Below, in pieces: positions 2,004 to 62,578 of a DNA stretch of 64,000 bases. Each line of letters opens with the position of its first letter. The first letter of the stretch is position 1. Source of the DNA: a virus (Duplodnaviria > Heunggongvirae > Uroviricota > Caudoviricetes); the IMG/VR virus record IMGVR_UViG_3300042892_005180, positions 1-64,000 of that record, one strand, 5' to 3'. Position numbers and translations under genes: made by a program. The notes below the pieces were generated by a model, which worked only from the letters and a program-made list of their open reading frames with translations, was not told the DNA's origin and searched no databases.

Positions 2004-2009
2004 TAAATA
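2004..2009 (+). promoter_or_regulatory. TAAATA box, T4 late-promoter-like, 4 nt upstream of ATG
   Basis: ATAAATACctgATG. The same 15-mer recurs at 37355 on the minus strand. Confidence 0.5.
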
Positions 2010-2013
2010 CCTG

Positions 2014-2442
2014 ATGCGCGATCTCATCACCCTCGTCGAAGCCCTCAACACCAATGCGGAAGTCACCCCCTTCCAGGACCCCGATATCTCCGGGCATGAA
2101 TTTACAGTCGGGGGTCGCAAATATGTGGTCGCCTACTCCGACGACGGTGAGAACGAATACTACATGAGCTTCACTGGCGAGGACGACCGTGGTCGCCAGA
2201 CCGCCATGCTGCTAGGTCATAACGCCCCCTTCAAGGTCTTCAGCGGCGTCGTGTCTTCGATGCTTCGTGTGATCGCAGAAAGGGAGCCTGAAGAGATCAG
2301 GTTCTCCGTCGATAACCGCGAGGAAAAGCGCGCAGCCGCATATGATCGTCTCCTGGATGCGGCGGAAAAGAATGGCGTGATGCCGGATGGTTACGTCTGG
2401 GACCGCGATCAGAACTTCAACTACCGCATCTTCCGCCGCTAA
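2014..2442 (+). CDS. Leader-family protein (MRDLITLVE..), putative capsid-targeted cargo
   Basis: ATG at 2014 is preceded by ATAAATACctg. The N-terminus MRDLITLVE matches the recurring leader. The upstream part of the tool ORF is antisense junk. Confidence 0.7.
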   Translation: MRDLITLVEALNTNAEVTPFQDPDISGHEFTVGGRKYVVAYSDDGENEYYMSFTGEDDRGRQTAMLLGHNAPFKVFSGVVSSMLRVIAEREPEEIRFSVDNREEKRAAAYDRLLDAAEKNGVMPDGYVWDRDQNFNYRIFRR

Positions 2443-2449
2443 ATATCGG

Positions 2450-3193
2450 ATGCGCGATCTCATCAATCTCATCGAACAGAACGACGATTACGACTATTCT
2501 CGATGGGGTGATGACGACGAGGGTGCCGAGCCCCATGAGGCCGACTCTCTGAAGAAACTCTGGCCGAAGGATGTGGTCAACATTCCAGAATTCCAGCAGT
2601 GGTTCGCCGGTTCGAAAGTTGTTGATGAACGGGGTCTTCCGATTCTGGTTCATCGCGGCCGAGCCCAACGATGGTCGGTGATGCCGACCGGCCATGCGGA
2701 GAAACTCAGACAGGCTTTCGAACGAGACGGTTTGATGAAAAGCTTTTCGAAAGAAATGGAGTTCGCTGATCGAATGGGTGACGTCGCGTGGTTCACCGAT
2801 GACGAATTCGTCGCGCACGGCTACATGGACGGTGCCGAAGAGGGGGACGTCCTGGAAGCCTATTTGTGCCTCAAGAACCCGCTCGATCTCCGACTGGAAA
2901 GCATCGGACAAGAAGAGGCCGAACGCATCATGACCGCTATTCGCGGCGAGGCTGTCAGCCTGAACGGCGAATGGTCCCGTCCTGCCAAAGTCCTTGCCGA
3001 CAAAATCGTCTGGGACAACTCGGTCGTGGTCGCGTGGGCGAGAGCGAACGGCTATGACGGCTTGATGCACAACGACACCTGCCTCTATGGGCGCCACGTC
3101 CATCACTCCTACGTGGCCTTCCGTCCTGATCAGATCAAAGCCGCCGCCAATACCGGAGCGTTCAGCAAGACTGACGTGAACATCCACCGATGA
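2450..3193 (+). CDS. Leader-family protein (MRDLINLIE..) with C-terminal GYDG..SYV.F.P.QIK domain
   Basis: CTAAATATcggATG sits upstream. The C-terminal block ANGYDGLMHNDTCLYGRHVHHSYVAFRPDQIK is paralogous to RHGYDGFAYTNAVEDPGHTSYVTFHPGQIK in the 6757 gene. Confidence 0.7.
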   Translation: MRDLINLIEQNDDYDYSRWGDDDEGAEPHEADSLKKLWPKDVVNIPEFQQWFAGSKVVDERGLPILVHRGRAQRWSVMPTGHAEKLRQAFERDGLMKSFSKEMEFADRMGDVAWFTDDEFVAHGYMDGAEEGDVLEAYLCLKNPLDLRLESIGQEEAERIMTAIRGEAVSLNGEWSRPAKVLADKIVWDNSVVVAWARANGYDGLMHNDTCLYGRHVHHSYVAFRPDQIKAAANTGAFSKTDVNIHR

Positions 3194-3597
3194 GAGACCT
3201 GATCGCAATCGTCGAGGAATGGTGCCACCAGACCAAGCACGGTGTTGACGTGTTCAAAAACCCGTCGCGCCAAGAACTCATGCGCGAAATACAAAAAGAC
3301 GAATATGGTCAGGTGCGCTGCATAGTCTTGCCAGAAGACCTGTACGTGTTCAGCACCGATATCATTCATCTCGCGTGTGCGGATTCTTTGGGCCTATCTC
3401 ACGATATCATTGGCAGAATCTTCCTTGACAAAAAAGGCCCGTTCATCAATCGCGATGATGACATCGCAACGGTGGGCAAGCCGGGTGGCTCAGAAAATCT
3501 TTGGAACATTCAGCAGCGGGAAAATGTTGACCGCTACTGCGTGGACCACCCGATTCTGTCTCGCCTCTATCCCAACTATGTCCTGGAGGTTCGCTGA
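3190..3597 (+). CDS. Leader-family protein (MRDLIAIVE..)
   Basis: Leader motif at the N-terminus. The start overlaps the upstream stop, indicating translational coupling. Confidence 0.65.
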   Translation: MRDLIAIVEEWCHQTKHGVDVFKNPSRQELMREIQKDEYGQVRCIVLPEDLYVFSTDIIHLACADSLGLSHDIIGRIFLDKKGPFINRDDDIATVGKPGGSENLWNIQQRENVDRYCVDHPILSRLYPNYVLEVR

Positions 3598-4376
3598 TGC
3601 ATCCCTGGACTCTTGAGAACGCGAAAGCGTTCGTCGCCGATCTTCAGTCTCGTGTTCGCGGCTACGACCTGGAGATCGTGGGCGGCGTCATCCGTAAGGG
3701 CTACAGCGACAAGGACGTCGATATCGTCCTGACCAAGAACGCCGAGTTCAGCCATGCCGATGAGGCGGCCGATGCGATGCAGGCCATGGGTGCCGCATTC
3801 AAGGGCCGCATCGACAAAATCCCCATGGAGGGATGGTTCCTCGCTGACGGTCGCAGGGTCGATTTCTTCTATGCGGAGAAGGGCGACAAGCGGAAGCGCA
3901 GGCCCGTCGTGGAGACCACGATGCGGGACCTCATCATGCTAGCCGAGTCGGCCTCGCTGCCAGAGTTCGTCTACCATGGCACCATCATGCGTCTCTGGAC
4001 TGCCGCGCACACTGGCTCCACCAATCTCTTCCTGGCAAGAGATCGCGATGAGGCGGAGAGCTACGCAGATCGTTCATACGAGAATGGTTGTCAGACCGAA
4101 CTCAACGACGAAGGACATTTCCCATACGACCCCGAGTCGACTCCCATCATCGTCGAGTTTCGTCTCGCCGATCTCATGGCTGATTCCACGCTGGCGTTCG
4201 ACTACGACTGGGGCTGGGAAGACGCGGCGGACGGAACGACGTGGCAGCAATCTCTGGCCGAGGTAGGCTCCTTCGTCGTCACCGGCTTCACGGACGGGCA
4301 CCGGAAACTTGGCAAGGTCGCGCTCGCCTATCCCGAGTATCACGCTGAGCAAATGGCATTGCTTTCACAGCCCTGA
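3597..4376 (+). CDS. Minimal Pol-beta-type nucleotidyltransferase fused in frame to an internal leader (MRDLIMLAE at nt 3921) plus an H-G-T-motif domain
   Basis: GGAGG-8-ATG start. The G[GS]x9DxD nucleotidyltransferase signature is GGVIRKGYSDKDVDIVL. The second half starts TTMRDLIMLAESASLPEFVYHGT, so this looks like a fusion of two cassette units. Confidence 0.6.
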   Translation: MHPWTLENAKAFVADLQSRVRGYDLEIVGGVIRKGYSDKDVDIVLTKNAEFSHADEAADAMQAMGAAFKGRIDKIPMEGWFLADGRRVDFFYAEKGDKRKRRPVVETTMRDLIMLAESASLPEFVYHGTIMRLWTAAHTGSTNLFLARDRDEAESYADRSYENGCQTELNDEGHFPYDPESTPIIVEFRLADLMADSTLAFDYDWGWEDAADGTTWQQSLAEVGSFVVTGFTDGHRKLGKVALAYPEYHAEQMALLSQP

Positions 4377-4392
4377 TCTCTATACTGCACCG

Positions 4393-4842
4393 ATGGATAA
4401 GATCGTCGGATATTCCCTCCAGCCCATCTATGGGCCAGATTCGAACACGACCAACTGTCTCGCGACTGGCGAACCTATTCCGAGTCGCATACTCGGCGAT
4501 GCCCTGTCATTGGAGTTTGTCCGCAAGCTCCGCGCCGAGCGGGAAATCAAGAAGTTCCTGGTCGCCTTGAGCGAGAAGATTCCCGAGTATGCTTGTCGCC
4601 ACGGTAGCTCGACTGACTATGACCGCAAACGCGACTATTGGTGGTTGAGCTTCAACGTCGGCGTTCAGGTTGTTGCTTCATACGACCCCGAGGTCGGTTT
4701 CGGTCTTCGTGAGCCCTTGGGCGAGGACGAGGAAGAACCCGACCAATACGACCCGTGGAGCCAGGAGCCCGTTCTCGTCACCAAGGACCCCGAGGAAGCC
4801 GCGCAGTTCTGCACTCAGTGGGTCCCCGCCCGCTACTGGTAA
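4393..4842 (+). CDS. hypothetical protein (acidic C-terminus)
   Basis: 150-aa ORF with a TATACT-like element 6 nt upstream of ATG (tctCTATACTgcaccgATG). Confidence 0.45.
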   Translation: MDKIVGYSLQPIYGPDSNTTNCLATGEPIPSRILGDALSLEFVRKLRAEREIKKFLVALSEKIPEYACRHGSSTDYDRKRDYWWLSFNVGVQVVASYDPEVGFGLREPLGEDEEEPDQYDPWSQEPVLVTKDPEEAAQFCTQWVPARYW

Positions 4843-5590: not shown

Positions 5591-5613
5591 TTGGTCAAAC
5601 GAGTAAATAGGTG

Positions 5614-6039
5614 ATGCGCTATCTCGACATCATCTGCGAGCAAGCCCCATCGGGCAAAGTTGTCAGCACCAGCATGCTGGTGAAACGCTACGGTGGCTCG
5701 TTCCTCCCGTATGCTCAACTCCCCGAGCCAGCGCAGAAAGCCCTTACGAGGTGGATGGTCTATGAGGGCGAGAACACCCACTACAAGCGGTCCAGTTACG
5801 GCTACGTCGAAGTACCCATTGATGACCTGATGAAGATCATCTGGAACCAGAATGGTTTCGATGACGGTGTCTCGTTCGAAGAGTTCTGGGGAAAACCGAG
5901 CGGTATGAACCCCAAGGTCTTCAACGAAGTCTGGCCCCTCATTTGGAGCAGCCAAGGGTGGGAAGACGGCATGCACCGACTTGGACACTATCGGAAGCTT
6001 GGGCTGAAGATGATTCCCGTCGTGGGGTCGAGACGTTGA
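5614..6039 (+). CDS. Leader-like protein (MRYLDIICE..)
   Basis: GTAAATAGgtgATG upstream. The N-terminus MRYLDIICE fits the leader pattern, ending I-x-E. Confidence 0.55.
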   Translation: MRYLDIICEQAPSGKVVSTSMLVKRYGGSFLPYAQLPEPAQKALTRWMVYEGENTHYKRSSYGYVEVPIDDLMKIIWNQNGFDDGVSFEEFWGKPSGMNPKVFNEVWPLIWSSQGWEDGMHRLGHYRKLGLKMIPVVGSRR

Positions 6040-17389: not shown

Positions 17390-17689
17390 TGAGAACCCAA
17401 GGATAAAGAGAAAGTTACATCTCCTTTATCCGTGAGTTTCAACTATGTCAATCAGCCCGGAACAAAGACGTTGCAGCTTCGACCTTCCAGGATAGCAATA
17501 GCGTCCAAACCATTTTGGCTAGGGGCATCCCCGCCTGATATAACAATATTTTTGTTCTCGCACAGCGTCGTTCCATTCGTGCCATCGAGGCTGACCAGCA
17601 ACTCAAGGAAATCAATTTTGGCGAAAGTTATCGATATCTATGGTCATGGAATACCTTTGTTTGTTTGAAATATTTATCAAAATGTTTAC

Positions 17690-17717
17690 TTGACAAACGC
17701 GATCTTCGTTGTATCGT
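17690..17717 (+). promoter_or_regulatory. sigma70-like promoter TTTACTTGACAA-16-TATCGT, leaderless start at 17724
   Basis: The -35 context TTTACTTGACA recurs at four other sites. Confidence 0.4.
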
Positions 17718-17723
17718 GGCCTC

Positions 17724-18062
17724 ATGGAAACGCTCAAGAACCCCACCAGCAAGGCCTTCGCGGCTTTTATCGCGCGCTGCAAGCACCGCGAAGTGCGGGG
17801 CATCATCGACCAAAACGATGGCGCGGTGTTCATCTGCGATGCCACAACCGGCCTGCACGCCGTGATGGCCCGCAATGTCGGCGTCGAGTTCTTCACCGGC
17901 TTCATGGTCCGCGCCCCCTACGACGAGGACGAAGAGACCTACGACTACTACCTCGACTTCCCCGCCGTCTGGGGCCAAGTCCCCTTCCTGGAGAAGTTCC
18001 GCGTCAACGTCGCCGGTATGGCGATCACCCAGCCGAAGGTGAAAGAAAAGATGGCCGCCTAA
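17724..18062 (+). CDS. hypothetical protein
   Basis: METLKNP start 7 nt after the -10 element. Confidence 0.5.
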   Translation: METLKNPTSKAFAAFIARCKHREVRGIIDQNDGAVFICDATTGLHAVMARNVGVEFFTGFMVRAPYDEDEETYDYYLDFPAVWGQVPFLEKFRVNVAGMAITQPKVKEKMAA

Positions 18063-18204: not shown

Positions 18205-18785
18205 ACATCATGGAAGCCATCAGGAAGGTAGACACCTCCGAGAAGAACACCCGAGGTGGTCTTTCTGACCATCTCGTGGTCGAGTTCGGCTATTCGAGCA
18301 CGTGCGAGTTCGACTGGAAGAAAGTCGAGACGCGTCTCAAGTACCATTACCTCCACACCTGGATGTGCACCGATTCCGCCGTGGGCGTGAGGGTCTACGC
18401 CCTTGACGGCGAGGCCGTGGCGATCTCCACGCAGGTCGGTCGCAAATGCGATGAGGATTTCCAATTTCTCTCTCAGGAGGCGTGGGACAAAATCCGCGTC
18501 ATGCTGTCCGAATGCCTGCATCCGCAGTCCAAAGAGAACATCACCCTCCTGGACCCGAACGCGAACATCTTCGAGGCGGATTCGGTCGATTTCACCTCCC
18601 AACTCATGGACGAGGACGGCCTCTACGAGGGCGAGCCCTGTACGGTCGTGCGTGAGAAAACCCGCACGCTTATGCGGGCAGATTACCTGTGCAAACTGGT
18701 CGCGGTCATTTTCGCGGACGGTCGCGAGGCCGTCATCCCGATCAAGGATTTCCTCATCCCGCTGAGGCTCGACCCGAATAAATAG
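18201..18785 (+). CDS. hypothetical protein
   Basis: Start MNIMEAIRK. The stop TAG lies inside the TAAATAG box of the next gene. Confidence 0.5.
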   Translation: MNIMEAIRKVDTSEKNTRGGLSDHLVVEFGYSSTCEFDWKKVETRLKYHYLHTWMCTDSAVGVRVYALDGEAVAISTQVGRKCDEDFQFLSQEAWDKIRVMLSECLHPQSKENITLLDPNANIFEADSVDFTSQLMDEDGLYEGEPCTVVREKTRTLMRADYLCKLVAVIFADGREAVIPIKDFLIPLRLDPNK

Positions 18786-18788
18786 GGC

Positions 18789-19277
18789 ATGCGCTCTTTC
18801 CTGGACTCGATCAAAATCACTGAGGAAAGCCTTAAGCTCGGTAGCGCAATGCGCACCGTGCCCATCGACGGCACCACCCCGGTGATCAAGCTGGGCTCCA
18901 ACCCTGCGAAGGCCAAGCTCGACGCTTTCATGAACGACTACCATGACGCCACGCAGGACAACCCGATGGACCGCAGGGCCCGGCTGACCACCAACGCGTC
19001 GGTCGAGGTGTCTAGCTTCGACAACGCTATCCATATCTCAGATGTCAGAGCCCTGACGCCGCGCCAGGGCGGAGGTAAGGAAGCCATGATGATGCTCTGT
19101 CGTCTGGCCGATCTCCATGGCGTGAAGATGACCCTGACCGCGAAAACATATGGGGACTACGGGAGGATGACCACCGAGCAACTCAAGTCCTGGTATGAAG
19201 ATTTCGGCTTCGCGGAAGACGAGGACAGCTTCGGGTCCGAGGACGAGGGATACGATATGATCAGGTATCCCAACTAG
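18789..19277 (+). CDS. GNAT-like protein with leader-like N-terminus (MRSFLDSIKITEE..)
   Basis: ATAAATAGggcATG upstream. RQGGGKEAMMMLCRLADLHGV resembles GNAT motif A. Confidence 0.55.
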   Translation: MRSFLDSIKITEESLKLGSAMRTVPIDGTTPVIKLGSNPAKAKLDAFMNDYHDATQDNPMDRRARLTTNASVEVSSFDNAIHISDVRALTPRQGGGKEAMMMLCRLADLHGVKMTLTAKTYGDYGRMTTEQLKSWYEDFGFAEDEDSFGSEDEGYDMIRYPN

Positions 19278-20202: not shown

Positions 20203-20213
20203 CGCTGCTCTCC

Positions 20214-20531: not shown

Positions 20532-20589
20532 ATCTTGTCAAGTAAATATTTTCAATTGCGAGCTTGCTTGACCGGTGCTAGGGGAAGAG

Positions 20590-20772: not shown

Positions 20773-21193
20773 TGTAGAGGAAGATCGTTTGCGACTTCAT
20801 GTCGTGAGTGACTTCGAGGTCGTAGCCCGGCGCGTGCAGGGTGCGAGCCATCCTCTTGTAGAGTGACACCCGCGAGCCCTCATCGGCGAACGCAGTGAAG
20901 TGGAAGCCCTTCGGCTGGCGGTCTTCGAGGAAGGACTGCACGATGTCGATCACGGTGGCCAGGACCCGGTTGGCCGACCCCGTTCCTGTCATCCCCATTG
21001 AGGATTTGCCGTCGATCATGGCGTCGAATGAGACGTGAACGTCGTCGTCGTCGCCTTGGAAACGAACCTTGTATTCGATGGCATCATCGCCATCGCCGAC
21101 CTCGAACTCTGCCCGCTGCAACGCTCGGCCATAGCTGGCCCAATGCCATTGCAGAGGGGCGTCGAAAGATTCGTTGATCTCTTTGAATCGCAT
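20738..21193 (-). CDS. hypothetical protein (MRFKEINE..)
   Basis: CTAAATAGgggATG upstream, identical in context to the HNH gene at 55109. Confidence 0.5.
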   Translation of the reverse strand: MRFKEINESFDAPLQWHWASYGRALQRAEFEVGDGDDAIEYKVRFQGDDDDVHVSFDAMIDGKSSMGMTGTGSANRVLATVIDIVQSFLEDRQPKGFHFTAFADEGSRVSLYKRMARTLHAPGYDLEVTHDMKSQTIFLYTKTGRSTVPSQ

Positions 21194-21200
21194 CCCCTAT

Positions 21201-21578
21201 TTAGGGACGAAAACGTCCTCGCTTACGGTCCCAACCGATGGCGGCATAGAAAACCAGGACGTCGTCGTAGTGACACGTCGGGATGTTTTGAAACTCGTCC
21301 TCGCCCAAGATGAAGGCGTCCGTGGCCCGACGTTCCTTGAAATGATCAAGATGCAGGGTCTGGAACCACCGCATACCGGGCCGCGAGGCCCAACCTGGAC
21401 CTTCCCACCGCCTCGTCATCTCCTTGTACTTAAAACCCATCATGGAGCGGCAGTGGTTCTGCGAACTCGTTTTCACGATGTGGATGCAGACCGGGTTATT
21501 GCTCGGGTCGATCTCGATGGAGGCGAACTCCCGAACGTCAGCCAACTTGATCGTCGCCCCGGAAACGGCCGAGAACAA
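21201..21578 (-). CDS. hypothetical protein
   Basis: 125-aa ORF whose stop TAA lies within the next TAAATAG box. Confidence 0.4.
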   Translation of the reverse strand: MFSAVSGATIKLADVREFASIEIDPSNNPVCIHIVKTSSQNHCRSMMGFKYKEMTRRWEGPGWASRPGMRWFQTLHLDHFKERRATDAFILGEDEFQNIPTCHYDDVLVFYAAIGWDRKRGRFRP

Positions 21579-25372: not shown

Positions 25373-25383
25373 CCGATATTTAT

Positions 25384-26272: not shown

Positions 26273-26322
26273 AGGAAACATTTTAGCCTTCCGGTCCTTT
26301 TCGGTCAACGAATAAATACAGG

Positions 26323-36195: not shown

Positions 36196-36228
36196 ATTTT
36201 TTCATCTCTCAAATATAGGGACGCGTAT

Positions 36229-37355: not shown

Positions 37356-37362
37356 CAGGTAT

Positions 37363-38067: not shown

Positions 38068-38108
38068 CCCTTGAGTATAGTTTGGGGTCGGTTCAGAAAC
38101 CTAAATGA

Positions 38109-39588: not shown

Positions 39589-39619
39589 ACACGTTGTTGA
39601 CTGAGCTATTTATGCTTGG

Positions 39620-41555: not shown

Positions 41556-41847
41556 TGCGGATTTCCTTTGTCATCAGTGCGGACCAGCGAGAAGCGTTTC
41601 CGGGGTGAGATGTCGGGGTTGATCTGAGATTTCTTGATCTCTTCACCGCGACGGGACCACCGGACAACGTTCGTATTCGTAAGCATATCGTTTAGGAACA
41701 TGGGCACACTGAGGTTGATTTTGTAGAGTATTTATGCCGATGGACAAATAGTCCGTTATGGCTTTATTGCAGCCGACTCGGGCTCGGATGATAAATAGTT
41801 TCACAAACCCCAAATGGGGTTGTTCAAAACCCGAAAGGAATACTACT

Positions 41848-47077: not shown

Positions 47078-47148
47078 GGTATAAGGCTCCCGGCGTGTTG
47101 CTGCCGATAGGTTATTTATCGCTCAGGGCCAGGAGCTAGACCTGTCCT

Positions 47149-49772: not shown

Positions 49773-50540
49773 TCAATTTCTGTATTGGATAACGTCGATG
49801 TCGCCAGAGACGGTTTCGACAATAAAACGAACCCAGAGGAGATTGCCCTCGAACGGCATGTGGACCAGTTCGGTGCTGTTGGTGAACTCGCGGCTCGTGA
49901 CATTGAACCATTCACCCGGAGAGCTTCCCGGTTGTTCGATTAGGCTGCCCTGAATAGTGACGCGGCCGGTGAAGTATTGGGTGGGGATAACCAGACTGTG
50001 TTGTCCCGAGACGTTGCCAACGCTGGCCGAGCCCGGATAGGCGCCGCTCTGGAGCTTGCCGCTGAGATTGATGAAGTCGTCGGTGGATATCGGAGTGGGC
50101 TCTGCCGGGCCTGGGATGGGCCCCTCAGCGACTTCAACGAGGCCGATGGCCTTGCGGTCGCGGTCGGTGTAGCAAGCGACCTGGACCCCATCAGAGCGGG
50201 TCTGGACCACGGTGTAGCGCAGCGTCTGGCTGGGGAACTTAGCCACGTCGTCGCCGGTCATGAACAAACGGGCGTGACCGTCCGGGGCACTGACTATCTG
50301 GAGATTTCGGGTCAAGAGAACGCGCTTCGTGGTCTGGTCTAGGATGTGAATGGTCACGGCCCCTTCTACGAGGGTCACTGCGCGACGGTCGATGTTCTTG
50401 AGAAAGAAATCGATTTCGTTATCGACATGACGATAGACTCGAAAGTCGGTTCTGTTGGCCGGGTAGTTCATAAGCGTGGCTCCTGTGCCCGTGGTCAACT
50501 CCACGACTTGCGGGATGCGATAGAGGTGAATGACAGACAT
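49773..50540 (-). CDS. hypothetical protein (255 aa)
   Basis: ATAAATATggcATG upstream. Confidence 0.5.
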   Translation of the reverse strand: MSVIHLYRIPQVVELTTGTGATLMNYPANRTDFRVYRHVDNEIDFFLKNIDRRAVTLVEGAVTIHILDQTTKRVLLTRNLQIVSAPDGHARLFMTGDDVAKFPSQTLRYTVVQTRSDGVQVACYTDRDRKAIGLVEVAEGPIPGPAEPTPISTDDFINLSGKLQSGAYPGSASVGNVSGQHSLVIPTQYFTGRVTIQGSLIEQPGSSPGEWFNVTSREFTNSTELVHMPFEGNLLWVRFIVETVSGDIDVIQYRN

Positions 50541-50555
50541 GCCATATTTATCTGG

Positions 50556-51029: not shown

Positions 51030-51875
51030 TTACATCACCAGGATTTTGCCAACGGCTCTGTGGAGGAGTTGGTTGAACTGCTCCTCCAGATACTCCGCGC
51101 AATCCGTGAGGCTCTGGTTGTAGTATTCGACGTCAAACTCGCTACCCTTGAGAGACAGATGCGACCGGCCCGACTTGATATGTGCGGGCAAGGGATTGAA
51201 TCGTACCCGACCAGTGGTGATGTATTGGGCGAAACACTCGTGAGTGAATTCCATCTCGTTGCGGATTTTTCCGTCACGGGCCGATTTGAACGTCCCGACT
51301 TTATGGAAGAGATTGACGAACAGACGATCTTGCTCCGCTGTGATACGAAAATCGTCTCGACTGCTCCCCAACTCAGGGAAGTTCTGATGGTAGAGCATGC
51401 GAATTACCATTGAGAACGTCTGAAGGATGTAACTGCGGGCCTCCTGGAAGTCCGGGAACTGGCGTTGCGACCCCCTCATGACACCGAAGTCGTAGCGGGA
51501 GAACGCGTGGCTGAGCCGGTGAGCCATAATCCAGCCCGTCATCGGCACACGTTGGTCTCCCTTGTTGTTCGTGAAGATCACGTTGATTGAGGAATCCGCA
51601 AGCTCAATCTCGGCCAGGGTCTTGGGCATATTGGTCTGAAGCCATTCGATGGTGACTGCGCCCTCTTCCATGAAGCGGTTGGCCTCCGGGCTGTTCACGA
51701 GCATGATGTTGAAGCTCACGGGGGTGTTGGACCACATGTTCTTGATTTTCTGCACGGCCTTCGGGTTCTGCAAGAGCTTACGGTCTTGCTCATGTCTGAA
51801 AGACGAATTGCGAGACCAGTCCCCGTAAAGGTTGAAGTCGTCGATGGGGGCTTCCATGAGTTCCAGTAGCAGCAT
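51030..51875 (-). CDS. Family-A paralog with leader-like N-terminus (MLLLELME AP..)
   Basis: CTAAATACggccATG upstream. The block INVIFTNNKGDQRVPMTGWIMAHRLSHAF is shared with the other paralogs. The tool N-extension to 52304 is rejected. Confidence 0.6.
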   Translation of the reverse strand: MLLLELMEAPIDDFNLYGDWSRNSSFRHEQDRKLLQNPKAVQKIKNMWSNTPVSFNIMLVNSPEANRFMEEGAVTIEWLQTNMPKTLAEIELADSSINVIFTNNKGDQRVPMTGWIMAHRLSHAFSRYDFGVMRGSQRQFPDFQEARSYILQTFSMVIRMLYHQNFPELGSSRDDFRITAEQDRLFVNLFHKVGTFKSARDGKIRNEMEFTHECFAQYITTGRVRFNPLPAHIKSGRSHLSLKGSEFDVEYYNQSLTDCAEYLEEQFNQLLHRAVGKILVM

Positions 51876-51941
51876 GGCCGTATTTAGTCGTTTGACCAAC
51901 GCGGGGCTGCTCGCTATGGTGGCGGCGCAAGGGAGCGAAAA

Positions 51942-52995: not shown

Positions 52996-54670
52996 CGTCT
53001 CGCTCGGCCTGCTTGTCGAGTTCTTTCAAGTAGAGGTCGTAGCTGCGACGATTCAGCAGCGAGGCCGAGAACAGAGGCAAGAGTTTATTCTCGTCCCACA
53101 GAACCTCTGATTTCTGGATGGTGAACATCGCGTACTCGTTGAAGTTATACTTTTCTGCGTTCTGGCCAATGTTTTCTACGAAGGAATCGAGTTCAGAGAA
53201 CGTCATGTCGTTCTCGACGATGTTGTCGAGTTCATATGTCGCGATGACGATTTGGTCTTTGTCGTTGACCTCGGCGCCCATCGCGTATGCATAGGCGAAC
53301 TCGAACGCCTTGCAGCGTCCTTCGAAATATTTTTTGCCGAAGTATTTCGAGGCGACAGGGAAGCGGTCCTCGGCGACGATGAACTCATTGGAGTCGATCT
53401 GGAATTCAAGATCGTCTCCACCGAATAGGTTTCCCTGCTGGGTGGGCGTCACGCCGAACTCGTGCTTGGCTATCTCGGCGAGGACATCGGGTCTGAGTTC
53501 CTTGAGGAACCCCATGAGGGTTTCCACAAACGTCCCGTAGGAATCCGTGACCTCGTTCTCCTCCAGGTATTCGAGAACGTCTTCATCCTTGACCGATACG
53601 GCACGGTAGAGTTTCTCGTCGCAGATGAGGTCTTCTCCGTCCCAGAAGAAATATTTGTCGTTCACTTCGTTGATGGCAGAGACGATCTTGTCGGCCGTCT
53701 TGTCCGTCAGTCCTTCTGCGCGATACAGTTCCTCGGCATTCATAAGCGTGGGCTTGAGTTCGAGGAGTTCATCCGCGACATCTTCATCCAGGTCCGAAAT
53801 CGAGAAGTTGTTGGCCGCCAAATAACCGCCCCCCTTGATTCCTGCGATCATGTCGAGGCGCAGAAGAGGGATGATGTATTTGTGGTATTGGGGCGCCGGT
53901 TTCTCGTTGCCGCGCCCCTTCATCTCACCGAGATATCCGTCAGAGTGCAGAATGAAGGTCAAACAGGGATGCCATTTGCCGGTGTCGGTCTGGCGGCGCA
54001 GAGACAGAATCTTTTGTGAAGTCCCCGCAGCAGGAGAGTTTCCGCAGTGCCCCATAGCTTTCGCCTCGGCATCGCATGACGCCTCATTCAGGTTGAACCA
54101 CACGTAGCCGTCCTTGAAGTCCATGATGACTTCATGGTGATCAAGCGCGTCGGTGTATTGGCTCTGTTTCTTCTTCCAGTCGTCTTCGGCCAGAGCCATC
54201 TGGCGATTGTAAATGTTGGGCGAGATGATGCCCATGTCGGGCACCACGGCGCGAAGAGCCGGGATGGAATCGTAGTGCTCGATGACGTCGATGTAGTTTT
54301 TCGCGTCTCGCATGTCCCCAAAGTCCTGGAGGAGGACGGTGGTGTTGATCTCCCATTTCGCGGCCAGTTCCTTGAGGAATTTGTTCTCGTTGGGGTCCTG
54401 GCCATTTGCCTTGCAGGCTCGATTTATGACGTGAACCTTGGCCAAACGGAGGACCCAGGTGATGCGATCTTTCTTGCTGCCCCGCTCGACGCCTTGCTCA
54501 TCGACTTTTCGGCCGAGTTTGGTCCTGCATTGCTCGATGATGGTCTGCACCCAGTTGGAGATGGATTCGCGCTCCTTGGGGTCCTTGACCGTAGACAGGA
54601 TGCCGTTGAACTGGTCCGTGAAGCTCTGAGCCTCGAAGAGGTTTTCCATCAAGGTCATGAGATCGCGCAT
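52955..54670 (-). CDS. large leader-like protein (MRDLMTLMENLFE..), 571 aa
   Basis: ATAAATACaccATG upstream. The leader variant ends L-F-E. Confidence 0.6.
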   Translation of the reverse strand: MRDLMTLMENLFEAQSFTDQFNGILSTVKDPKERESISNWVQTIIEQCRTKLGRKVDEQGVERGSKKDRITWVLRLAKVHVINRACKANGQDPNENKFLKELAAKWEINTTVLLQDFGDMRDAKNYIDVIEHYDSIPALRAVVPDMGIISPNIYNRQMALAEDDWKKKQSQYTDALDHHEVIMDFKDGYVWFNLNEASCDAEAKAMGHCGNSPAAGTSQKILSLRRQTDTGKWHPCLTFILHSDGYLGEMKGRGNEKPAPQYHKYIIPLLRLDMIAGIKGGGYLAANNFSISDLDEDVADELLELKPTLMNAEELYRAEGLTDKTADKIVSAINEVNDKYFFWDGEDLICDEKLYRAVSVKDEDVLEYLEENEVTDSYGTFVETLMGFLKELRPDVLAEIAKHEFGVTPTQQGNLFGGDDLEFQIDSNEFIVAEDRFPVASKYFGKKYFEGRCKAFEFAYAYAMGAEVNDKDQIVIATYELDNIVENDMTFSELDSFVENIGQNAEKYNFNEYAMFTIQKSEVLWDENKLLPLFSASLLNRRSYDLYLKELDKQAERDAKRAAEQAQGTKS

Positions 54671-54677
54671 GGTGTAT

Positions 54678-55109
54678 TTATCGCTTACGCGGCTTTGGGA
54701 CCTTGGGCGGTTTCAGGGCCGCGCGAGCAGCGGCGCGGGCGGTCGCCTCGGCCGAAGTTTTCTTCACATGACAGGGTACGCACAGGGTCTGGAGGTTGGG
54801 GAGCTTCCAGTATTCGAGATCGCCGTTGGATTCGATGAGGGGCTGGACGTGGTCGAGTTCCCACGGCACGTGGAAATCGTCGCAGACGGTCGGGCAATGC
54901 GCACAGTGGCCCTGGTCTCGCTTCCAGACGGCCTTGCGGGTCTCCTGGGGCCAGTAGATGACCTTGTAGGCGCGGACGCACGGCTTGTGCCAGTTGGCCC
55001 GGCTCCGCAACCGACCCTTGTCGTCCAAGATGATCTCACCGCAGAACCGGCAGTATCCCTTGGGGGCGTTGTTGTAGTGGATGGGTTTCGGGGGCTTGCG
55101 ATGCAGCAT
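54678..55109 (-). CDS. HNH homing endonuclease
   Basis: ELDHVQPLIESNGDLEYWKLPNLQTLCVPCHVKKT. CTAAATAGgggATG upstream. Confidence 0.7.
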   Translation of the reverse strand: MLHRKPPKPIHYNNAPKGYCRFCGEIILDDKGRLRSRANWHKPCVRAYKVIYWPQETRKAVWKRDQGHCAHCPTVCDDFHVPWELDHVQPLIESNGDLEYWKLPNLQTLCVPCHVKKTSAEATARAAARAALKPPKVPKPRKR

Positions 55110-55243
55110 CCCCTATTTAGACAGGAGTTAACGCGCCCCGGAGATCAAGCGAACCAACCAGTTCGGCATTTTCTCTGCCAAACGGTTCCCGAAACGGAGA
55201 CCCCAAAGGTAAGCCCGGTCGTGTAGTGCTTTCATATTTCTGG

Positions 55244-55936: not shown

Positions 55937-56000
55937 GGCGTTCTATTAGCCGAAATCGTATTTATGGTCAACCATTATTCTCGTTGTCTAAATAGCTCTC

Positions 56001-56372
56001 ATGGACGTACAGATTCAAACTATCCTTGAGAAGTTCCCGTTTCTCTCTTACGGTTTCTTGCAGGAACAGCCCTACATTGGCATCATCCAGAACTCGGACA
56101 ATCAGCTTTTGTCCATGTATGTTCTGGACCTGATTCCAGATGAGAAGCTCCGCGTGGAGTTCCTCCGCATGGGTGAAATGTGGTGGTGGGAATCGAATCG
56201 TCAGGTGCCGATCAACATTTTCTTCAAGGAACGCTTCCGCCAGTTCCGTCCGTTCCTGAAGCACTTCGCCAAGGATTTCGAACTCGTCGCCGGGCCCGCT
56301 GTCTCCTTGCAGGAAACGATTGCCCGCCGCGTCCGTAAGCGTCAGGTCACTCTTCTTCGGAAGATGGACTAA
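56001..56372 (+). CDS. hypothetical protein (MDVQIQTILE..)
   Basis: CTAAATAGctctcATG upstream. Confidence 0.5.
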   Translation: MDVQIQTILEKFPFLSYGFLQEQPYIGIIQNSDNQLLSMYVLDLIPDEKLRVEFLRMGEMWWWESNRQVPINIFFKERFRQFRPFLKHFAKDFELVAGPAVSLQETIARRVRKRQVTLLRKMD

Positions 56373-59097: not shown

Positions 59098-59098
59098 C

Positions 59099-59617: not shown

Positions 59618-59760
59618 CAGGTATGAAATCCAATAATGACCACCTTAGACCACACCTCCGAGGCCCAAACAATAAATAAGAGAAAGAGATTCCCATAGGG
59701 CTGCTCCCACTCCCTGTTGGTTGCTTGGAACCCCGGAGATGAACCGTCTCCGGGGCTTCC

Positions 59761-60138: not shown

Positions 60139-60483
60139 TTATTTGGTATCCTTTGCGGTTGTGGTTGATTTCTTCTTGGCGACGCTGCCGCCATTTTTGC
60201 CGTTGTTGTCGTGGTCAAGCGGGTCACGCGTGGTCTCGACGACGGTTTCCGGTCCCGCTACTGCGGAAGCGGTGGGCGAGGCGGGTTGGGTTTCGACCAG
60301 GATAGCCTTGCGCTCGGGAGCGCGGGCAATCTGATCGATGATCTTGGCGTCGGTTTCGGCGGCGGTGTTGAACTGGTCCGAAATGGCTTCGAATAGAGCC
60401 AGAGTGGTTTCGTTCGCCTTGTTGTTGTCCGAGCGGCCAATGGCCTCACGGAGGGCTTCAATCAGGTTTGGAATATTGGACAA
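60139..60483 (-). CDS. hypothetical protein (MSNIPNLIEALRE..)
   Basis: 114-aa ORF. N-terminus possibly leader-like. Confidence 0.45.
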   Translation of the reverse strand: MSNIPNLIEALREAIGRSDNNKANETTLALFEAISDQFNTAAETDAKIIDQIARAPERKAILVETQPASPTASAVAGPETVVETTRDPLDHDNNGKNGGSVAKKKSTTTAKDTK

Positions 60484-60492
60484 AGTATCTCC

Positions 60493-60996
60493 TTAGGAAA
60501 AAATCTTGGTGATCTCTAGGACGTCGGGGAGCTTGTTCGTATCCTTGACAAAGAATACGCATGGAGGCTCCAGGCCGTCACGGAGGGGCACAGCGAGGAT
60601 ATGGCCGAACTTCAAGCGAGGCATGTTCCAGGAGAAATCTGGGAAGATGTTCTGGATACTCACCTCATGAAATTCCGGCATGTAGCCGTTCACGGGGTTG
60701 AAAGCGAAAACGTCGAACTCTCGGTCGTTGAGATGTTTGAGTTCGATGATTTCGATGCAGCCCATGTTCTTGTCGGCGATCACGACGCTCCAATCTAGGG
60801 GCATCATAATCCGGTAGGGACCTATCTTGAGGTCGGCTGCCGGGCGCGAGAAAACATCAAGGAACACCAGAGGGATGAAGAAAAAATCGACATTACTCTG
60901 ATCGCTGTAGTCGAGAACGCAATACCGGACATCGTCGATTTGGTCCGGGAGGTCGTTCATCGAGAACGTATTATTTTCGGGGGTAAGCGTCAGCAT
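60493..60996 (-). CDS. hypothetical protein
   Basis: 167-aa ORF. Confidence 0.45.
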   Translation of the reverse strand: MLTLTPENNTFSMNDLPDQIDDVRYCVLDYSDQSNVDFFFIPLVFLDVFSRPAADLKIGPYRIMMPLDWSVVIADKNMGCIEIIELKHLNDREFDVFAFNPVNGYMPEFHEVSIQNIFPDFSWNMPRLKFGHILAVPLRDGLEPPCVFFVKDTNKLPDVLEITKIFS

Positions 60997-61022
60997 TTAC
61001 ACACACAAGTAATCATGAGTAA

Positions 61023-62519
61023 TCATCGCACTTTTGACAGTATGGCGTCAACTACTTCGGTGTTTTTGTAGTCGATTTTCCGTGTCTTATGCTGATAGTT
61101 TGCATCGTCGTAGTAACCGCGACGCACACTGAGGTGACGACGTGAGAACTTGAGCGATGATGTGACATCGTAGATTTGAACGAAGTCTTTGTCGTGGGCC
61201 TTGCGGATGCCACGACCGATGGATTGAATGACGCGCACGAAGGACTTTCCGGGTTCGAGCAAGACGAGGTTGAAGATGCGGGGGATGTTGATACCCACGG
61301 CTGCGACGCCATAGGTGGCGATGATGACCTTGCTGGTCGCGCCCTGAACTTCCTTGTACTCCTTCGAGCGGTCCTTGGTCTTGACCTTTCCCGAGATGAA
61401 GACGCTGTCGGGAATCAGGGTCTGGAGGAACTCGCCAGTTTCGATTCGGTCAACGAGGATGAGGGTGTTTCCGCTATCGGCGATCTGCCGAGAGAACTCG
61501 CCCAGCCAGCCGATGCGCTCCTTGTCGTTGACGAGGAAGTCGTATTCGTCGTGGTAGTCCTTGAACTCCACGTGGCTGTCGTTGAACTGCATGATATCGA
61601 CCTGACAGTTGGCCAGGACGCCTTTGGCTTGCAGATCGCTCGCCTTGATCTCGCCGACCACGGGGCCCAGAGCGACCAGCAGGGAGAGGAACTCGTGCTC
61701 ATCCTTCGGGATGGTCCCGGTCAGCCCCCAGCGGATGGGAATCATCGCCATGGGTCCGCAGAGCAAATCCTTCAGTTCGGCTCCCTTGACGGTGTGGGTC
61801 TCATCGACCATCACGCAGACGACGTCCTTGATGAAGTCGTGGATGGTGATTTCGAGTTCTTCCCGCTTGCCCTTTTTGGAGAACACGGTCAGGGATTGCC
61901 ACGTGCAGATCGTGTGCTGATGACCCCACTCCTTGCGGTTGCCATAGAAGACGCCCACATCGAGACCCAGGTTGCGATAATCTTCTTCGGTCTGCTCAAC
62001 CAGTGACTTCGACGGAACGATCACGAGGGTGCGCCCGTAGGGTTCGCATAGCGATGACAACGACGCGGTCATCAGCGTCTTGCCAGCCCCGGTCGAAATC
62101 GATTGGACGGAGCGAAGGTTGTTCACGAAGTTGGTGATTGCCTCGACCTGATAGTCGCGCAGCATGATGGGCTCGCCAGCAATGGGGTGACCTTCCGGCC
62201 AGACCTTGTGGGCGAACATGTCTTCGCTGATCTCGGGGAACTCGAACTTGAACTTCGGACGACGGTCGTCGAGTTCAAGCTCGTAGCCGTCCTCGTAGAT
62301 CATCGGCAGAACGCGTTCGAGGAGGTTGTTGTAGGTGGCGCCGCCGACTGTGGCGAAGCTCACCTTGCCGTCCCATCGGCCCATCTTGAACGCGGGCATG
62401 TGGCGGGCATACGGAACGAGGAACTTGAGTTCTTCGTTGATCTTTCTTCTGATCAGTGGGTCGAGACCGTCGAACTTTACGTTCACGAAATCGGGGATTA
62501 CCAATGTGGCTGTCTTCAT
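61023..62519 (-). CDS. SF2 DExH helicase, T4 UvsW-like
   Basis: Walker A STGAGKT, MVDETH box, and SAT-like and QSIGRGIR motifs. TAAATACtaggATG upstream. Confidence 0.8.
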   Translation of the reverse strand: MKTATLVIPDFVNVKFDGLDPLIRRKINEELKFLVPYARHMPAFKMGRWDGKVSFATVGGATYNNLLERVLPMIYEDGYELELDDRRPKFKFEFPEISEDMFAHKVWPEGHPIAGEPIMLRDYQVEAITNFVNNLRSVQSISTGAGKTLMTASLSSLCEPYGRTLVIVPSKSLVEQTEEDYRNLGLDVGVFYGNRKEWGHQHTICTWQSLTVFSKKGKREELEITIHDFIKDVVCVMVDETHTVKGAELKDLLCGPMAMIPIRWGLTGTIPKDEHEFLSLLVALGPVVGEIKASDLQAKGVLANCQVDIMQFNDSHVEFKDYHDEYDFLVNDKERIGWLGEFSRQIADSGNTLILVDRIETGEFLQTLIPDSVFISGKVKTKDRSKEYKEVQGATSKVIIATYGVAAVGINIPRIFNLVLLEPGKSFVRVIQSIGRGIRKAHDKDFVQIYDVTSSLKFSRRHLSVRRGYYDDANYQHKTRKIDYKNTEVVDAILSKVR

Positions 62520-62578
62520 CCCTAGTATTTACCATGTGGTATACTCTGGGACCTAAAATCAACTGCGTTAAATACTGG

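What the first reader, a model, noticed from the sequence alone, without database searches (positions are those of the whole stretch)
2004..62575. Recurrent TAAATA(C/G/T) box 3-6 nt upstream of start codons (T4 late-promoter-like), implying leaderless late transcripts, often overlapping the upstream stop codon
Instances (motif then spacer then ATG): plus strand at 2014, 2450, 5614, 9941, 12829, 14594, 15839, 18789, 26323, 29728, 56001 and 62579; minus strand at 12227, 21193, 25372, 37355, 50540, 51875, 54670, 55109 and 62519. The same box lies 30-50 nt upstream of nrdA (36195), of the 39588, 41848 and 47077 genes, and about 175 nt upstream of 41555. None of the closely spaced copies has a Shine-Dalgarno sequence. 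The T4 late promoter is TATAAATA at -13 to -6 and is read by gp55. With a 3-5 nt spacer the transcription start site would fall on or next to the A of AUG, so these would be leaderless mRNAs. The box often contains the upstream gene's TAA or TAG stop (for example gaaTAAATAGggcATG at 18785). It marks most leader-family genes, consistent with late expression co-timed with head assembly.
Basis: partly seen in the sequence, partly recalled or inferred. Interest (0 to 1): 0.75.

Follow-up and report, generated by a model that had tools for sequence, protein, structure and literature searches.

The report
Late-type promoter box abutting start codons
An uncultured giant phage related to T4 places a strict TAAATA box, which in its relatives sits in front of tail and baseplate genes like a T4 late promoter, only four bases before the ATG of about twenty genes that lack a ribosome-binding site, so these messages probably begin at the start codon itself.

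Summary
TAAATA occurs 30 times against 4.4 expected. TAAATA-N3-6-ATG occurs 21 times against 0.29 expected, with spacer 4 dominant. All copies lie outside gene bodies. None of the 21 genes has a Shine-Dalgarno sequence, against 36% of other genes, and all start with ATG. Their first 45 nt are unusually unstructured. An unseen 6.4-kb flank of the same contig adds 5 boxes, all abutting ATG.

The window belongs to a 57%-GC jumbo phage of the Atu_ph07/Phosso clade, which carries T4-type core genes. In relatives the same box lies 13-32 nt upstream of tail fiber, tail tube, endolysin, terS and baseplate genes, with a Shine-Dalgarno sequence in between. The clade encodes a gp55-family late sigma factor. 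So the box is best read as a gp55-type late promoter, in this lineage fused to start codons to give leaderless mRNAs.

The same genome also places sigma70-type -10 hexamers exactly 6 nt before ATGs, so leaderless expression is a genome habit.

Caveats: there are no TSS data; strict T4 numbering puts +1 one base past the A at 4-nt spacers; this phage's own gp55 was not found in the 79 kb available.

Verdict: a new variant of known kinds, of moderate interest.

The parts
2004..2016 (+). Box TAAATA + cctg + ATG (MRDLITLVE... gene 2014-2442). The upstream neighbour is divergent.
2440..2452 (+). Box + tcgg + ATG (gene 2450-3193; PF18760 ART-PolyVal is listed for this product in the database gene table). 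The TAA of the box is the stop codon of gene 2014-2442.
5604..5616 (+). Box + ggtg + ATG (gene 5614-6039). GGTCAA lies 5 nt upstream of the box (= TTGACC on the opposite strand).
9931..9943 (+). Box + ggtc + ATG (gene 9941-10894).
12225..12237 (-). Box + tggg + ATG (kinase-like gene 11277-12227). The box overlaps the stop codon of 12235-12783.
12819..12831 (+). Box (the only copy with the T4-like TATAAATA extension) + gATG ATG (gene 12829-13572).
14584..14596 (+). Box + ccgt + ATG (gene 14594-15034). Only 27 nt separate the two divergent start codons, and the box is the only promoter-like signal there.
15819..15832 (+).
18779..18791 (+). Box + gggc + ATG (gene 18789-19277). The TAG stop of the upstream gene overlaps the end of the box.
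21191..21203 (-). Box + gggg + ATG (gene 20738-21193). The box overlaps the upstream stop codon.
25370..25382 (-). Box + tcgg + ATG (ORF 24575-25372, atypical composition).
26313..26325 (+). Box + cagg + ATG (gene 26323-27306). It lies back-to-back with the divergent TTGACC-N17-TAAAAT-N7-ATG promoter at 26308(-).
29717..29730 (+). Box + gtctc + ATG (homing-endonuclease-like gene 29728-30369).
37353..37365 (-). Box + cctg + ATG (gene 36681-37355). The box overlaps the stop codon of exonuclease gene 37363-38067.
50538..50550 (-). Box + tggc + ATG (gene 49773-50540, weak match to a virion structural protein family). It lies back-to-back with the sigma70-type promoter at 50556(+).
51873..51886 (-). 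Box + cggcc + ATG (gene 51030-51875). It lies back-to-back with the sigma70-type promoter at 51892(+).
54668..54680 (-). Box + cacc + ATG (MRDLMTLME... 571-aa gene 52955-54670). The box overlaps the stop codon of the HNH gene.
55107..55119 (-). Box + gggg + ATG (HNH endonuclease gene 54678-55109).
55989..56003 (+). Box + gctctc + ATG (gene 56001-372, spacer 6).
62517..62531 (-). Box + ctaggg + ATG (UvsW-like helicase 61023-62519, spacer 6).
62569..62581 (+). Box + ctgg + ATG (gene 62579-63064). It is divergent from the UvsW box, 37 nt away.
36226..36231 (-). Distal box 30 nt upstream of nrdA (33889-36195). It overlaps the stop codon of 36229-36678.
39607..39612 (-). Distal box 18-33 nt upstream of the low-GC3 ORF 39271-39588.
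41729..41734 (-). Distal box 173 nt upstream of gene 40377-41555. A 49-51-aa ORF lies 21-27 nt downstream of the box.
41792..41797 (+). Distal box 50 nt upstream of the SD-bearing gene 41848-42213.
47113..47118 (-). Distal box 35 nt upstream of the SD-bearing gene 46808-47077.
17671..17676 (-). Doubtful copy. It is an A/T-rich stretch just upstream of the -35 TTGACA of the opposite-strand sigma70-type promoter at 17690(+), and no ORF lies downstream.
20543..20548 (+). Doubtful copy. It is adjacent to the -35 TTGACA of the opposite-strand promoter at 20541(-). A 60-aa SD-bearing ORF lies 41 nt downstream.
55959..55964 (-). Doubtful copy. It lies inside the spacer of TTGACC-N17-TAATAG-N6-ATG (gene 55244-55936).
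59673..59678 (+). Orphan copy in an intergenic region between minus-strand genes. No plus-strand ORF lies downstream.
17690..17726 (+). Context: sigma70-type TTGACA-N16-TATCGT-N6-ATG (ATG at 17724), a leaderless geometry with a different promoter class.
26270..26308 (-). Context: TTGACC-N17-TAAAAT-N7-ATG (ATG at 26272).
4359..4395 (+). Context: TTGCTT-N16-TATACT-N6-ATG (gene 4393-4842).
38065..38079 (-). Context: TATACT-N6-ATG (exonuclease gene 37363-38067).

Best explanation
[A/C]TAAATA is this phage's late-class promoter of the T4 type. It is a single -10-like element without a -35 element, read by host RNA polymerase core carrying a phage gp55-family sigma factor.

In this high-GC lineage the box has been moved to 4 nt (range 3-6) upstream of the ATG. 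Transcription would then begin at, or within 1-2 nt of, the A of AUG. The message would have no 5' UTR and no Shine-Dalgarno sequence, and would be translated by direct ribosome binding to a 5'-terminal AUG.

Where genes are packed head to tail, the TAA or TAG of the box doubles as the stop codon of the upstream gene. Genes following a box-led gene without their own box are translated by coupling or by an SD sequence.

The same genome uses the same trick with host sigma70-type promoters, with the -10 hexamer exactly 6 nt before ATG. Leaderless expression is therefore a general habit here, presumably matched to the host.

Shown: the motif, its strictness, position, spacing, lack of SD, and its association with late genes and a gp55 homologue in relatives.

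Inferred: that it is read by gp55, that transcription starts on the A, and that expression is late.
For: Enrichment and spacing:
- TAAATA occurs 30 times against 4.4 expected.
- TAAATA-N3-6-ATG occurs 21 times against 0.29 expected.
- In an unseen flank of the same contig, 5 of 5 new boxes abut ATG.

Box properties:
- All six bases are invariant. The 18 single-mismatch variants are followed by N4-ATG 0-1 times each, against 16 for TAAATA.
- No box-led gene starts with GTG or TTG.
- There is no -35 element or other upstream conservation.
- All copies lie outside gene bodies and are co-oriented with the downstream gene.
- 12 of the 21 close boxes sit in divergent intergenic regions, one of them only 27 nt long.

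Signs of leaderless translation:
- None of the 21 box-led genes has an SD, against 36% of other genes (p=1.5e-5).
- Distal boxes are followed by SD-bearing genes.
- The first 45 nt are weakly structured: -5.0 against -7.7 kcal/mol (p=4e-4).
- The spacer is depleted of A (6% against 21.5%, p=9e-6), and the A of ATG is the first A after the box at 20 of 26 sites.

A second leaderless class in the same genome:
- A sigma70-type -10 hexamer lies exactly 6 nt from ATG at 5 of 61 genes, against 0.64% of control ATGs (p=1e-4).

Relatives:
- Phosso has 17 boxes on the gene strand against 4 on the other.
- In Phosso the box lies 25-32 nt before tail fiber, minor tail, tail tube, terS and endolysin, and 58 nt before tail sheath.
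- In L016-L019 the box precedes gp25, the gp53 operon and a gp6-like baseplate gene.
- A gp55-family sigma factor is present in the clade, with gp55-gp47-gp46 synteny.

Literature:
- The T4 late promoter is an 8-bp box at -10 with no -35 element, tightly conserved, and occurs in either polarity.
- Aeh1 uses CTAAATA.
- CBB and GAP32 use ATAAATA and have a gp55-like sigma factor.
- A -10 motif 6-7 bp before ORFs gives leaderless mRNAs in Deinococcus-Thermus.
Against: - No 5'-end data exist.
- In T4 numbering the box ends at -6. A 4-nt spacer (20 of 26 sites) would put +1 on the U of AUG, so a 1-nt shorter box-to-start distance has to be assumed. Only the 5-nt spacers fit exactly.
- The spacer is G/C-rich, whereas T4 late promoters are A/T-rich downstream of the box.
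- gp55, gp33 and gp45 homologues were not found in the 79 kb of this genome that I could read.
- Downstream genes in the window are not recognisable structural genes. They are homing endonucleases, a kinase-like protein, a UvsW-like helicase and unknowns.
- Relatives use the box with 13-60-nt leaders. The leaderless reading therefore rests on geometry in one lineage.
- Nine of the 21 close boxes head paralogous genes and are not fully independent events.
Confidence: 0.65

Rival explanations
1. The box is a -10-only promoter, but it is read by the host primary sigma factor or by another phage factor, not by a gp55-type sigma. It need not be a late promoter. The leaderless outcome is the same.
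For: - The genome already uses host-type -10 hexamers abutting ATG.
- In Deinococcus a -10 motif alone can act as a promoter.
- In L017 a TAAATA box with a TTGACT 19 nt upstream abuts an ATG at 4 nt.
- Downstream genes in the window are not structural.
- This phage's own gp55 was not found.
Against: - The box ends in A where sigma70-type -10 elements require T at -7.
- All six positions are invariant, unlike the degenerate TAnnnT hexamers of the sigma70-type class in the same genome.
- Its spacing to ATG is 4 nt, not 6.
- There is no -35 element or TGn extension.
- In relatives the identical box marks tail, baseplate, lysis and packaging genes, and a gp55 homologue is present.
Confidence: 0.17
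2. The box acts at the RNA level. UAAAUA would be a non-SD translation-initiation enhancer, or a cleavage site for a phage or host endoribonuclease that trims polycistronic RNA to leaderless form. It would not be a promoter.
For: - The spacing to ATG is fixed, and SD is absent.
- Six close boxes lie between co-directional genes, where read-through transcripts are likely.
- The T4 literature cautions that primer-extension 5' ends can reflect processing rather than initiation.
Against: - Twelve of the 21 boxes head divergent units, where a promoter is needed and no other candidate exists. One gap is only 27 nt.
- The same box occurs 18-173 nt from starts in the window and 13-60 nt from starts in relatives, always followed by a normal SD. 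It is therefore not a ribosome-binding signal there.
- It matches the T4-family late-promoter consensus in a clade that has gp55.
Confidence: 0.1
3. There is no dedicated function. The motif would be a by-product of stop-codon context, A/T-rich intergenic composition, or copying together with a duplicated gene family.
For: - Six close boxes overlap stop codons.
- Nine of the 21 head one paralogous family.
- Three or four copies are plausibly incidental: UP-like stretches, a sigma70 spacer and an orphan.
Against: - 21 instances are observed against 0.29 expected.
- Twelve have no co-directional upstream gene.
- Twelve head unrelated genes.
- Flanks and spacers differ between family members while the box and its spacing are kept.
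- Single-mismatch variants are absent at this position.
- The pattern replicates in unseen sequence.
Confidence: 0.02

Closest known systems
T4-family late promoters (TATAAATA at -13 to -6; read by gp55 with gp33 and the gp45 clamp), including the variants Aeh1 CTAAATA and Rak2-like CBB/GAP32 ATAAATA
   Same: - Identical TAAATA core, A or C just upstream, very tight conservation, no -35 element, and use on both strands.
- The box marks tail, baseplate, lysis and packaging genes in relatives of this phage.
- A gp55-family sigma factor is present in the clade.
- T4 also expresses uvsW late (my own knowledge), and here the UvsW-like gene is box-led.
   Different: - In T4 and in the relatives studied here, the box is followed by an SD-bearing leader. 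Here 21 of 30 boxes end 3-6 nt before ATG, and those genes have no SD.
- The spacer is G/C-rich rather than A/T-rich.
- The 5'-TA extension is missing (T at -13 equivalent in 4/30).
- The implied box-to-start distance is one base shorter than in T4.
'-10 region adjacent to ORF' leaderless expression in Deinococcus-Thermus. From my own knowledge: also leaderless-rich bacteria modelled by GeneMarkS-2, lambda cI from PRM, and the largely leaderless middle/late transcripts of Thermus phage phiYS40 (Sevostyanova et al. 2007).
   Same: A promoter -10-like element sits a few bp before the start codon, replaces the RBS, and has a fixed spacing (TANNNT at 6-7 bp). This window shows that exact sigma70-type pattern as well.
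   Different: Those cases use the host primary sigma factor and a degenerate TANNNT hexamer. The box here is an invariant hexamer of the gp55 type, at a 4-nt spacing, in a T4-related jumbo phage.
Jumbo phages Atu_ph07, Phosso, PA5oct, SCTP-2 and the Rak2-like group
   Same: - Closest protein-level relatives: UvsW-like helicase 48-56% identical, gp41/DnaB-like helicase 52-56%.
- In Phosso, the only one of these whose DNA I examined, the same box serves as the putative late promoter alongside sigma70-type putative early promoters. Sigma70-type promoters are reported for PA5oct.
   Different: There is no nucleotide-level similarity. GC is 57% here, against 37-50% in those relatives. In Phosso no box abuts an annotated start codon (L012: 0 of 21 boxes followed by ATG at 3-6 nt; L013: 2 of 18, neither at an annotated start).

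Membership tests
T4-type late promoter (gp55-dependent) | Short, tightly conserved A/T box with core TAAATA at the -10 position | tested here: met
   All six bases are invariant at 30 sites. A or C precedes the box in 24/30. Single-mismatch variants are not used. This matches the published variants CTAAATA and ATAAATA.
T4-type late promoter (gp55-dependent) | No conserved -35 element | tested here: met
   Information content is below 0.4 bit at every position from -40 to -1. The GGTCAA seen upstream of some boxes reads as TTGACC on the opposite strand; at 26303, 50561 and 51897 it is the -35 of a divergent sigma70-type promoter.
T4-type late promoter (gp55-dependent) | Precedes late (virion, lysis, packaging) genes, in either polarity | tested here: inconclusive
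   Met in relatives: Phosso tail fiber, minor tail, tail tube, tail sheath, terS and endolysin, and baseplate genes in L016-L019. In the window itself no clear structural gene is present, and the box-led genes are endonucleases, a helicase, a kinase-like protein and unknowns.
T4-type late promoter (gp55-dependent) | The phage encodes a gp55-family sigma factor (plus gp33 and a gp45 clamp) | tested here: inconclusive
   gp55 family: Atu_ph07 gp694 matches phrog_12791 at 1e-116, and there are 3069 homologues with gp55-gp47-gp46 synteny. tblastn gave no hit in the window or its flanks, about 79 kb of a contig of at least 119.5 kb. gp33 and gp45 were not searched for; CBB is reported to lack recognisable homologues of them.
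T4-type late promoter (gp55-dependent) | Transcription starts about 6 nt after the box, with an A/T-rich melted segment downstream | tested here: not met
   The start site is not testable. The downstream segment is G/C-rich (G 48%, A 6%), unlike T4. A 4-nt spacer needs a start 5 nt after the box rather than 6.
Leaderless mRNA | The transcript 5' end coincides with the A of the start codon | not testable with these tools
   Only geometry is available: the box lies at -10 to -5 relative to the A. Sigma70-type hexamers in the same genome sit at the canonical -12 to -7 relative to the A.
Leaderless mRNA | No Shine-Dalgarno sequence, and an AUG (not GUG or UUG) start | tested here: met
   None of 21 genes has an SD, against 36% of other genes. 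All 21 start with ATG, and no box is followed by GTG or TTG.
Leaderless mRNA | Unstructured 5' coding end | tested here: met
   Mean folding energy of the first 45 nt is -4.97 against -7.71 kcal/mol for other genes (p=3.7e-4), and -9.63 for internal windows of the same genes.
Sigma70-type (-35/-10) promoter | TTGACA-like -35 element 16-18 bp upstream of a TAnnnT hexamer ending in T | tested here: not met
   The box ends in A and has no -35 element. Genuine sigma70-type promoters exist separately in the window: 10 observed against 1.26 expected.

The most novel reading that the evidence does not exclude
A lineage of T4-related jumbo phages has rebuilt its late gene expression so that gp55-type promoters are fused to start codons, and a third or more of its messages (late and early) are leaderless. 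That would mean late translation is deliberately SD-independent. The phage could then destroy or block SD-dependent initiation of host and early messages, as T4 RegB does by cutting GGAG, or could exploit or remodel ribosomes that prefer 5'-terminal AUGs. It would also mean that the gp55 holoenzyme of this lineage starts one base closer to its box than T4's does.
Probability: 0.15. Interest if true: 0.8.

Novelty: new variant of a known kind. Interest (0 to 1): 0.55.

Why it matters
The finding would show that the minimal T4-type late promoter can also replace the ribosome-binding site. One 6-bp box would then set the transcription start and the translation start, and often the stop codon of the preceding gene as well.

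It gives a clean, sequence-defined set of about 26 sites for testing three questions:
- how the gp55 holoenzyme selects its start site;
- how leaderless translation works in a proteobacterial-type phage lineage;
- what host property the leaderless habit reflects.

Practically, it corrects start-codon calls. Several of my first-pass starts were wrong. It also provides a rule for annotating this uncultured phage clade.

It is not a new principle. Both T4-type late promoters and promoter-adjacent leaderless genes are known.

Tried and rejected
- Megablast of 24 kb of the window against deposited phages gave no match.
- tblastn with Atu_ph07 gp55 (gp694) against the window and all held loci gave no credible hit.
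- A viral-contig scan with gp694 returned only the query itself.
- I looked up five gp55 homologues chosen for GC-biased amino-acid composition. None came from the source samples, and all were 42-51% GC.
- Viral-contig scans with two lineage-specific box-led proteins found no relatives.
- The second-sample variant L029 is 99.9% identical, so it is useless for a conservation test.
- A purine preference at the 5th nt after the box in leadered relatives is broad (positions 3-7). It does not pin down the start site.
- One protein look-up failed: the product of 2450-3193 was reported as not on record.
- Stop-codon context as an explanation is rejected: 12 of 21 boxes have divergent upstream neighbours.
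- Hitch-hiking with a gene family is rejected: 12 box-led genes are unrelated to the family, and flanks differ between members.
- GGTCAA as an upstream promoter element is rejected. It reads as TTGACC on the opposite strand, and at 26303, 50561 and 51897 that is the -35 of a divergent sigma70-type promoter.
- Reading the box as a sigma70 -10 hexamer is rejected, on its last base, its spacing and the missing -35 element.

Full report
**Observation.** The window is 55-60% G+C, so an all-A/T hexamer is rare by chance. TAAATA occurs 30 times on both strands, against 4.39 +/- 1.98 in dinucleotide shuffles. In register, 21 copies are followed by ATG after 3-6 nt, against a shuffle mean of 0.285 and a maximum of 2. 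The spacer is 4 nt at 16 sites, 5 nt at 3 and 6 nt at 2.

The box upstream of the 39588 ORF is 18 nt away, not 30-50 nt.

I built a codon-usage gene model of 98 genes covering 86% of the window. Every box-adjacent ATG is in frame with a predicted gene. Several of my first-pass starts had to be moved to the box-adjacent ATG. An independent database gene caller uses those same ATGs.

**Anatomy of the motif.**
- The only extra information outside the hexamer is A or C at the preceding base (24/30) and avoidance of A at the following base (2/30).
- There is no -35-like or any other upstream conservation. The T4 'TA' extension is absent.
- The hexamer is strict. None of the 18 single-mismatch variants is followed by N4-ATG more than once, against 16 times for TAAATA. 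No box is followed by a GTG or TTG start.
- All 30 copies lie outside gene bodies. Six close copies, plus the nrdA copy, overlap the stop codon of a co-directional upstream gene.
- Twelve of the 21 close copies have a divergent upstream neighbour. This rules out 'preferred stop-codon context'.
- In one case (14584) the two divergent start codons are only 27 nt apart, and the box is the only signal between them.

**Translation signals.**
- None of the 21 box-led genes has an anti-SD duplex of -5 kcal/mol or stronger. The figure is 36% for the other 77 genes and 22% for random positions (p=1.5e-5).
- Genes behind distal boxes (41848, 47077, 41555) do carry SD sequences.
- The first 45 nt of box-led genes are less structured: -4.97 against -7.71 kcal/mol (p=3.7e-4), and -9.63 for internal windows of the same genes.
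- The spacer is depleted of A (7 of 112 nt, p=9e-6). At 20 of 26 sites the A of ATG is the first A after the box. This would focus initiation on that base, which is an inference.

**A second leaderless class.** GGTCAA upstream of several boxes reads as TTGACC on the opposite strand. At 26303, 50561 and 51897 it is the -35 of a divergent TTGACC-N17-TAnnnT promoter. Such sigma70-type promoters occur 10 times against 1.26 expected.

Independently of the box, TAnnnT hexamers peak at exactly 6 nt before start codons. This holds for 5 of 61 genes against 0.64% of control ATGs (p=1e-4), with none at 3, 4 or 7-9 nt. Full -35/-10 promoters abut ATGs at 4393, 17724, 24544, 26272 and 29667. That is the canonical geometry for a transcript starting on the A.

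Promoter-adjacent start codons are therefore a habit of this genome, with two promoter classes. The same architecture is documented for host promoters in Deinococcus-Thermus, where TANNNT lies 6-7 bp before about one third of ORFs.

**What the genome is.** There is no nucleotide match to deposited phages. The window encodes:
- NrdA, NrdB, a DnaB/gp41-like helicase, a primase and a UvsW-like helicase;
- an exonuclease and a DNA-polymerase-family protein.

The closest protein matches, at 48-56% identity, are in the jumbo phages Atu_ph07, Phosso, SCTP-2 and the PA5oct group. The source is a metagenomic contig of 119.5 kb.

**Comparative evidence that the box is a late-type promoter.**
- In Sinorhizobium phage Phosso (49-50% GC), TAAATA is strongly strand-biased: 17 copies on the gene strand against 4.
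- In Phosso's structural module the box lies 25-32 nt upstream of tail fiber, minor tail, tail tube, terS and endolysin, and 58 nt upstream of tail sheath. An SD sequence always lies in between.
- In four of the five metagenomic relatives fetched through their gp55 homologues (L016-L019), the box lies 13-25 nt before gp25, the gp53-containing operon or a gp6-like baseplate gene. L021 does not cover those genes.
- Atu_ph07 gp694 is a gp55-family late sigma factor (phrog_12791, 1e-116). The family has more than 3000 metagenomic members and keeps the T4 gene order gp55-gp47-gp46.
- Published T4-family late promoters are TATAAATA at -13 to -6, with a poorly conserved first T. Aeh1 uses CTAAATA from -12, and Rak2-like CBB and GAP32 use ATAAATA.

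The box therefore belongs to a known promoter kind. What differs is that in relatives almost no box abuts an ATG: 0 of 21 boxes in Phosso L012 are followed by ATG at 3-6 nt, and the two such cases among 18 in L013 are not at annotated starts.

The uvsW orthologue illustrates the variation:
- box plus a ~58-nt leader in L022-24;
- box plus a 44-nt leader in L011;
- sigma70-type TATACT, TACACT or TATAGT followed by N6-ATG in L008, L010 and L027;
- box followed by N6-ATG in the window.

**Replication.** The 6.4 kb to the left of the window on the same contig holds 5 more boxes. All are followed by ATG at 4-5 nt. The 8.5 kb to the right holds none. In the 79 kb held, 26 of 35 boxes abut an ATG.

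**Which copies are probably not promoters.**
- 17676- and 20543+ are A/T-rich stretches directly upstream of the -35 TTGACA of opposite-strand sigma70-type promoters.
- 55964- lies inside a sigma70-type spacer.
- 59673+ has no downstream ORF.

**Weak points.**
- No 5' ends have been measured.
- With T4 numbering, a 4-nt spacer puts +1 on the U of AUG, so initiation must be one base closer to the box than in T4. The 5-nt spacers fit exactly.
- The spacer is G/C-rich, unlike T4's A/T-rich melted segment.
- This phage's own gp55, gp33 and gp45 were not found in the sequence available.
- The downstream genes are two homing endonucleases, a kinase-like protein, UvsW and unknowns, so 'late' is inferred from relatives.
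- Nine of the 21 boxes head one paralogous family. However, their flanks and spacers differ, and 12 boxes head unrelated genes.

**On the 'leader family'.** Fifteen ORFs in the window, and five more in the left flank, begin M-R-x-[LFW]-[IM]-x-[LI]-x-E. Nine have their own box. The other six follow directly in box-headed units, either coupled or carrying an SD. Two carry ART-PolyVal domains.

From my own knowledge, this resembles the T4 capsid-targeting leaders of internal proteins and Alt, which the prohead protease cleaves after (L/I)-x-E. If that holds, late expression would make sense. I did not test it.

**Verdict.** The box itself is a member of a known promoter kind. Its systematic fusion to start codons, together with sigma70-type leaderless promoters in the same genome, is a new variant worth an experimental look. 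It is not a new principle.

Noticed in passing
window 2014, 2450, 3190, 3921, 5614, 6039, 6536, 6757, 9941, 10891, 12829, 14594, 15830, 18789 (+) and 54670 (-); L028 1282, 2114, 4514, 5267, 6208: A paralogous family of ORFs shares a 9-residue N-terminus, M-R-x-[LFW]-[IM]-x-[LI]-x-E (for example MRDLITLVE), ahead of otherwise diverse bodies. Two members carry ART-PolyVal domains. From memory, the N-terminus resembles the T4 capsid-targeting, prohead-protease-cleaved leaders ((L/I)-x-E). This would make them candidate packaged or injected proteins. The copy at 3921 is an in-frame internal Met of ORF 3597-4376.
   Followed up: partly
window 30701-30772 (-): A 72-nt tRNA with anticodon UCA, which would read UGA (Rfam 55.9 bits; ARAGORN labels it 'SeC', but it lacks the long extra arm). 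Yet TGA is the commonest stop codon in my gene model (44 of 98). It may be a suppressor or read-through tRNA.
   Followed up: partly
window 15478(+), 17690(+), 20541(-), 23372(-), 24578(-), 26308(-), 31434(-), 42691(-), 50556(+), 51892(+): Strong sigma70-type promoters of the form TTGAC[AC]-N16/17-TAnnnT: 10 observed against 1.26 expected. Three (26308, 50556, 51892) lie back-to-back with TAAATA boxes, forming bidirectional promoter pairs. Several abut ATG at 5-7 nt.
   Followed up: yes
window 29728-30369 (+) and 54678-55109 (-): Two homing-endonuclease-like genes (GIY-YIG/HNH-type PHROG families), each with its own box abutting the ATG. A further RE_Eco29kI/GIY-YIG-like ORF at about 9375-9866 (-) is listed in the database gene table.
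   Followed up: partly
L016 1246/9785/20211 (-), L017 1573/9754 (-), L018 6193 (-), L019 2059 (-): In lower-GC relatives, the baseplate-gene boxes carry a conserved upstream partner, TTTATAG-N5-TAAATA. This partner is absent from the window.
   Followed up: no
window 39271-39588 (-) and 24575-25372 (-): Two box-associated ORFs with atypical composition (GC3 0.46 and 0.57, against about 0.72 for the genome). They may be recent acquisitions.
   Followed up: no
window 27679-29088 (-): A 469-aa SPFH/Band-7 domain protein with the strongest codon-usage score in that region. It has no SD, no box and no -10 hexamer before its ATG.
   Followed up: no
window 59679-59760 (+): The orphan box at 59673 is followed, about 53 nt later, by a perfect 9-bp hairpin (ccccggaga...tctccgggg) in a 143-nt gap between minus-strand genes.
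   Followed up: no
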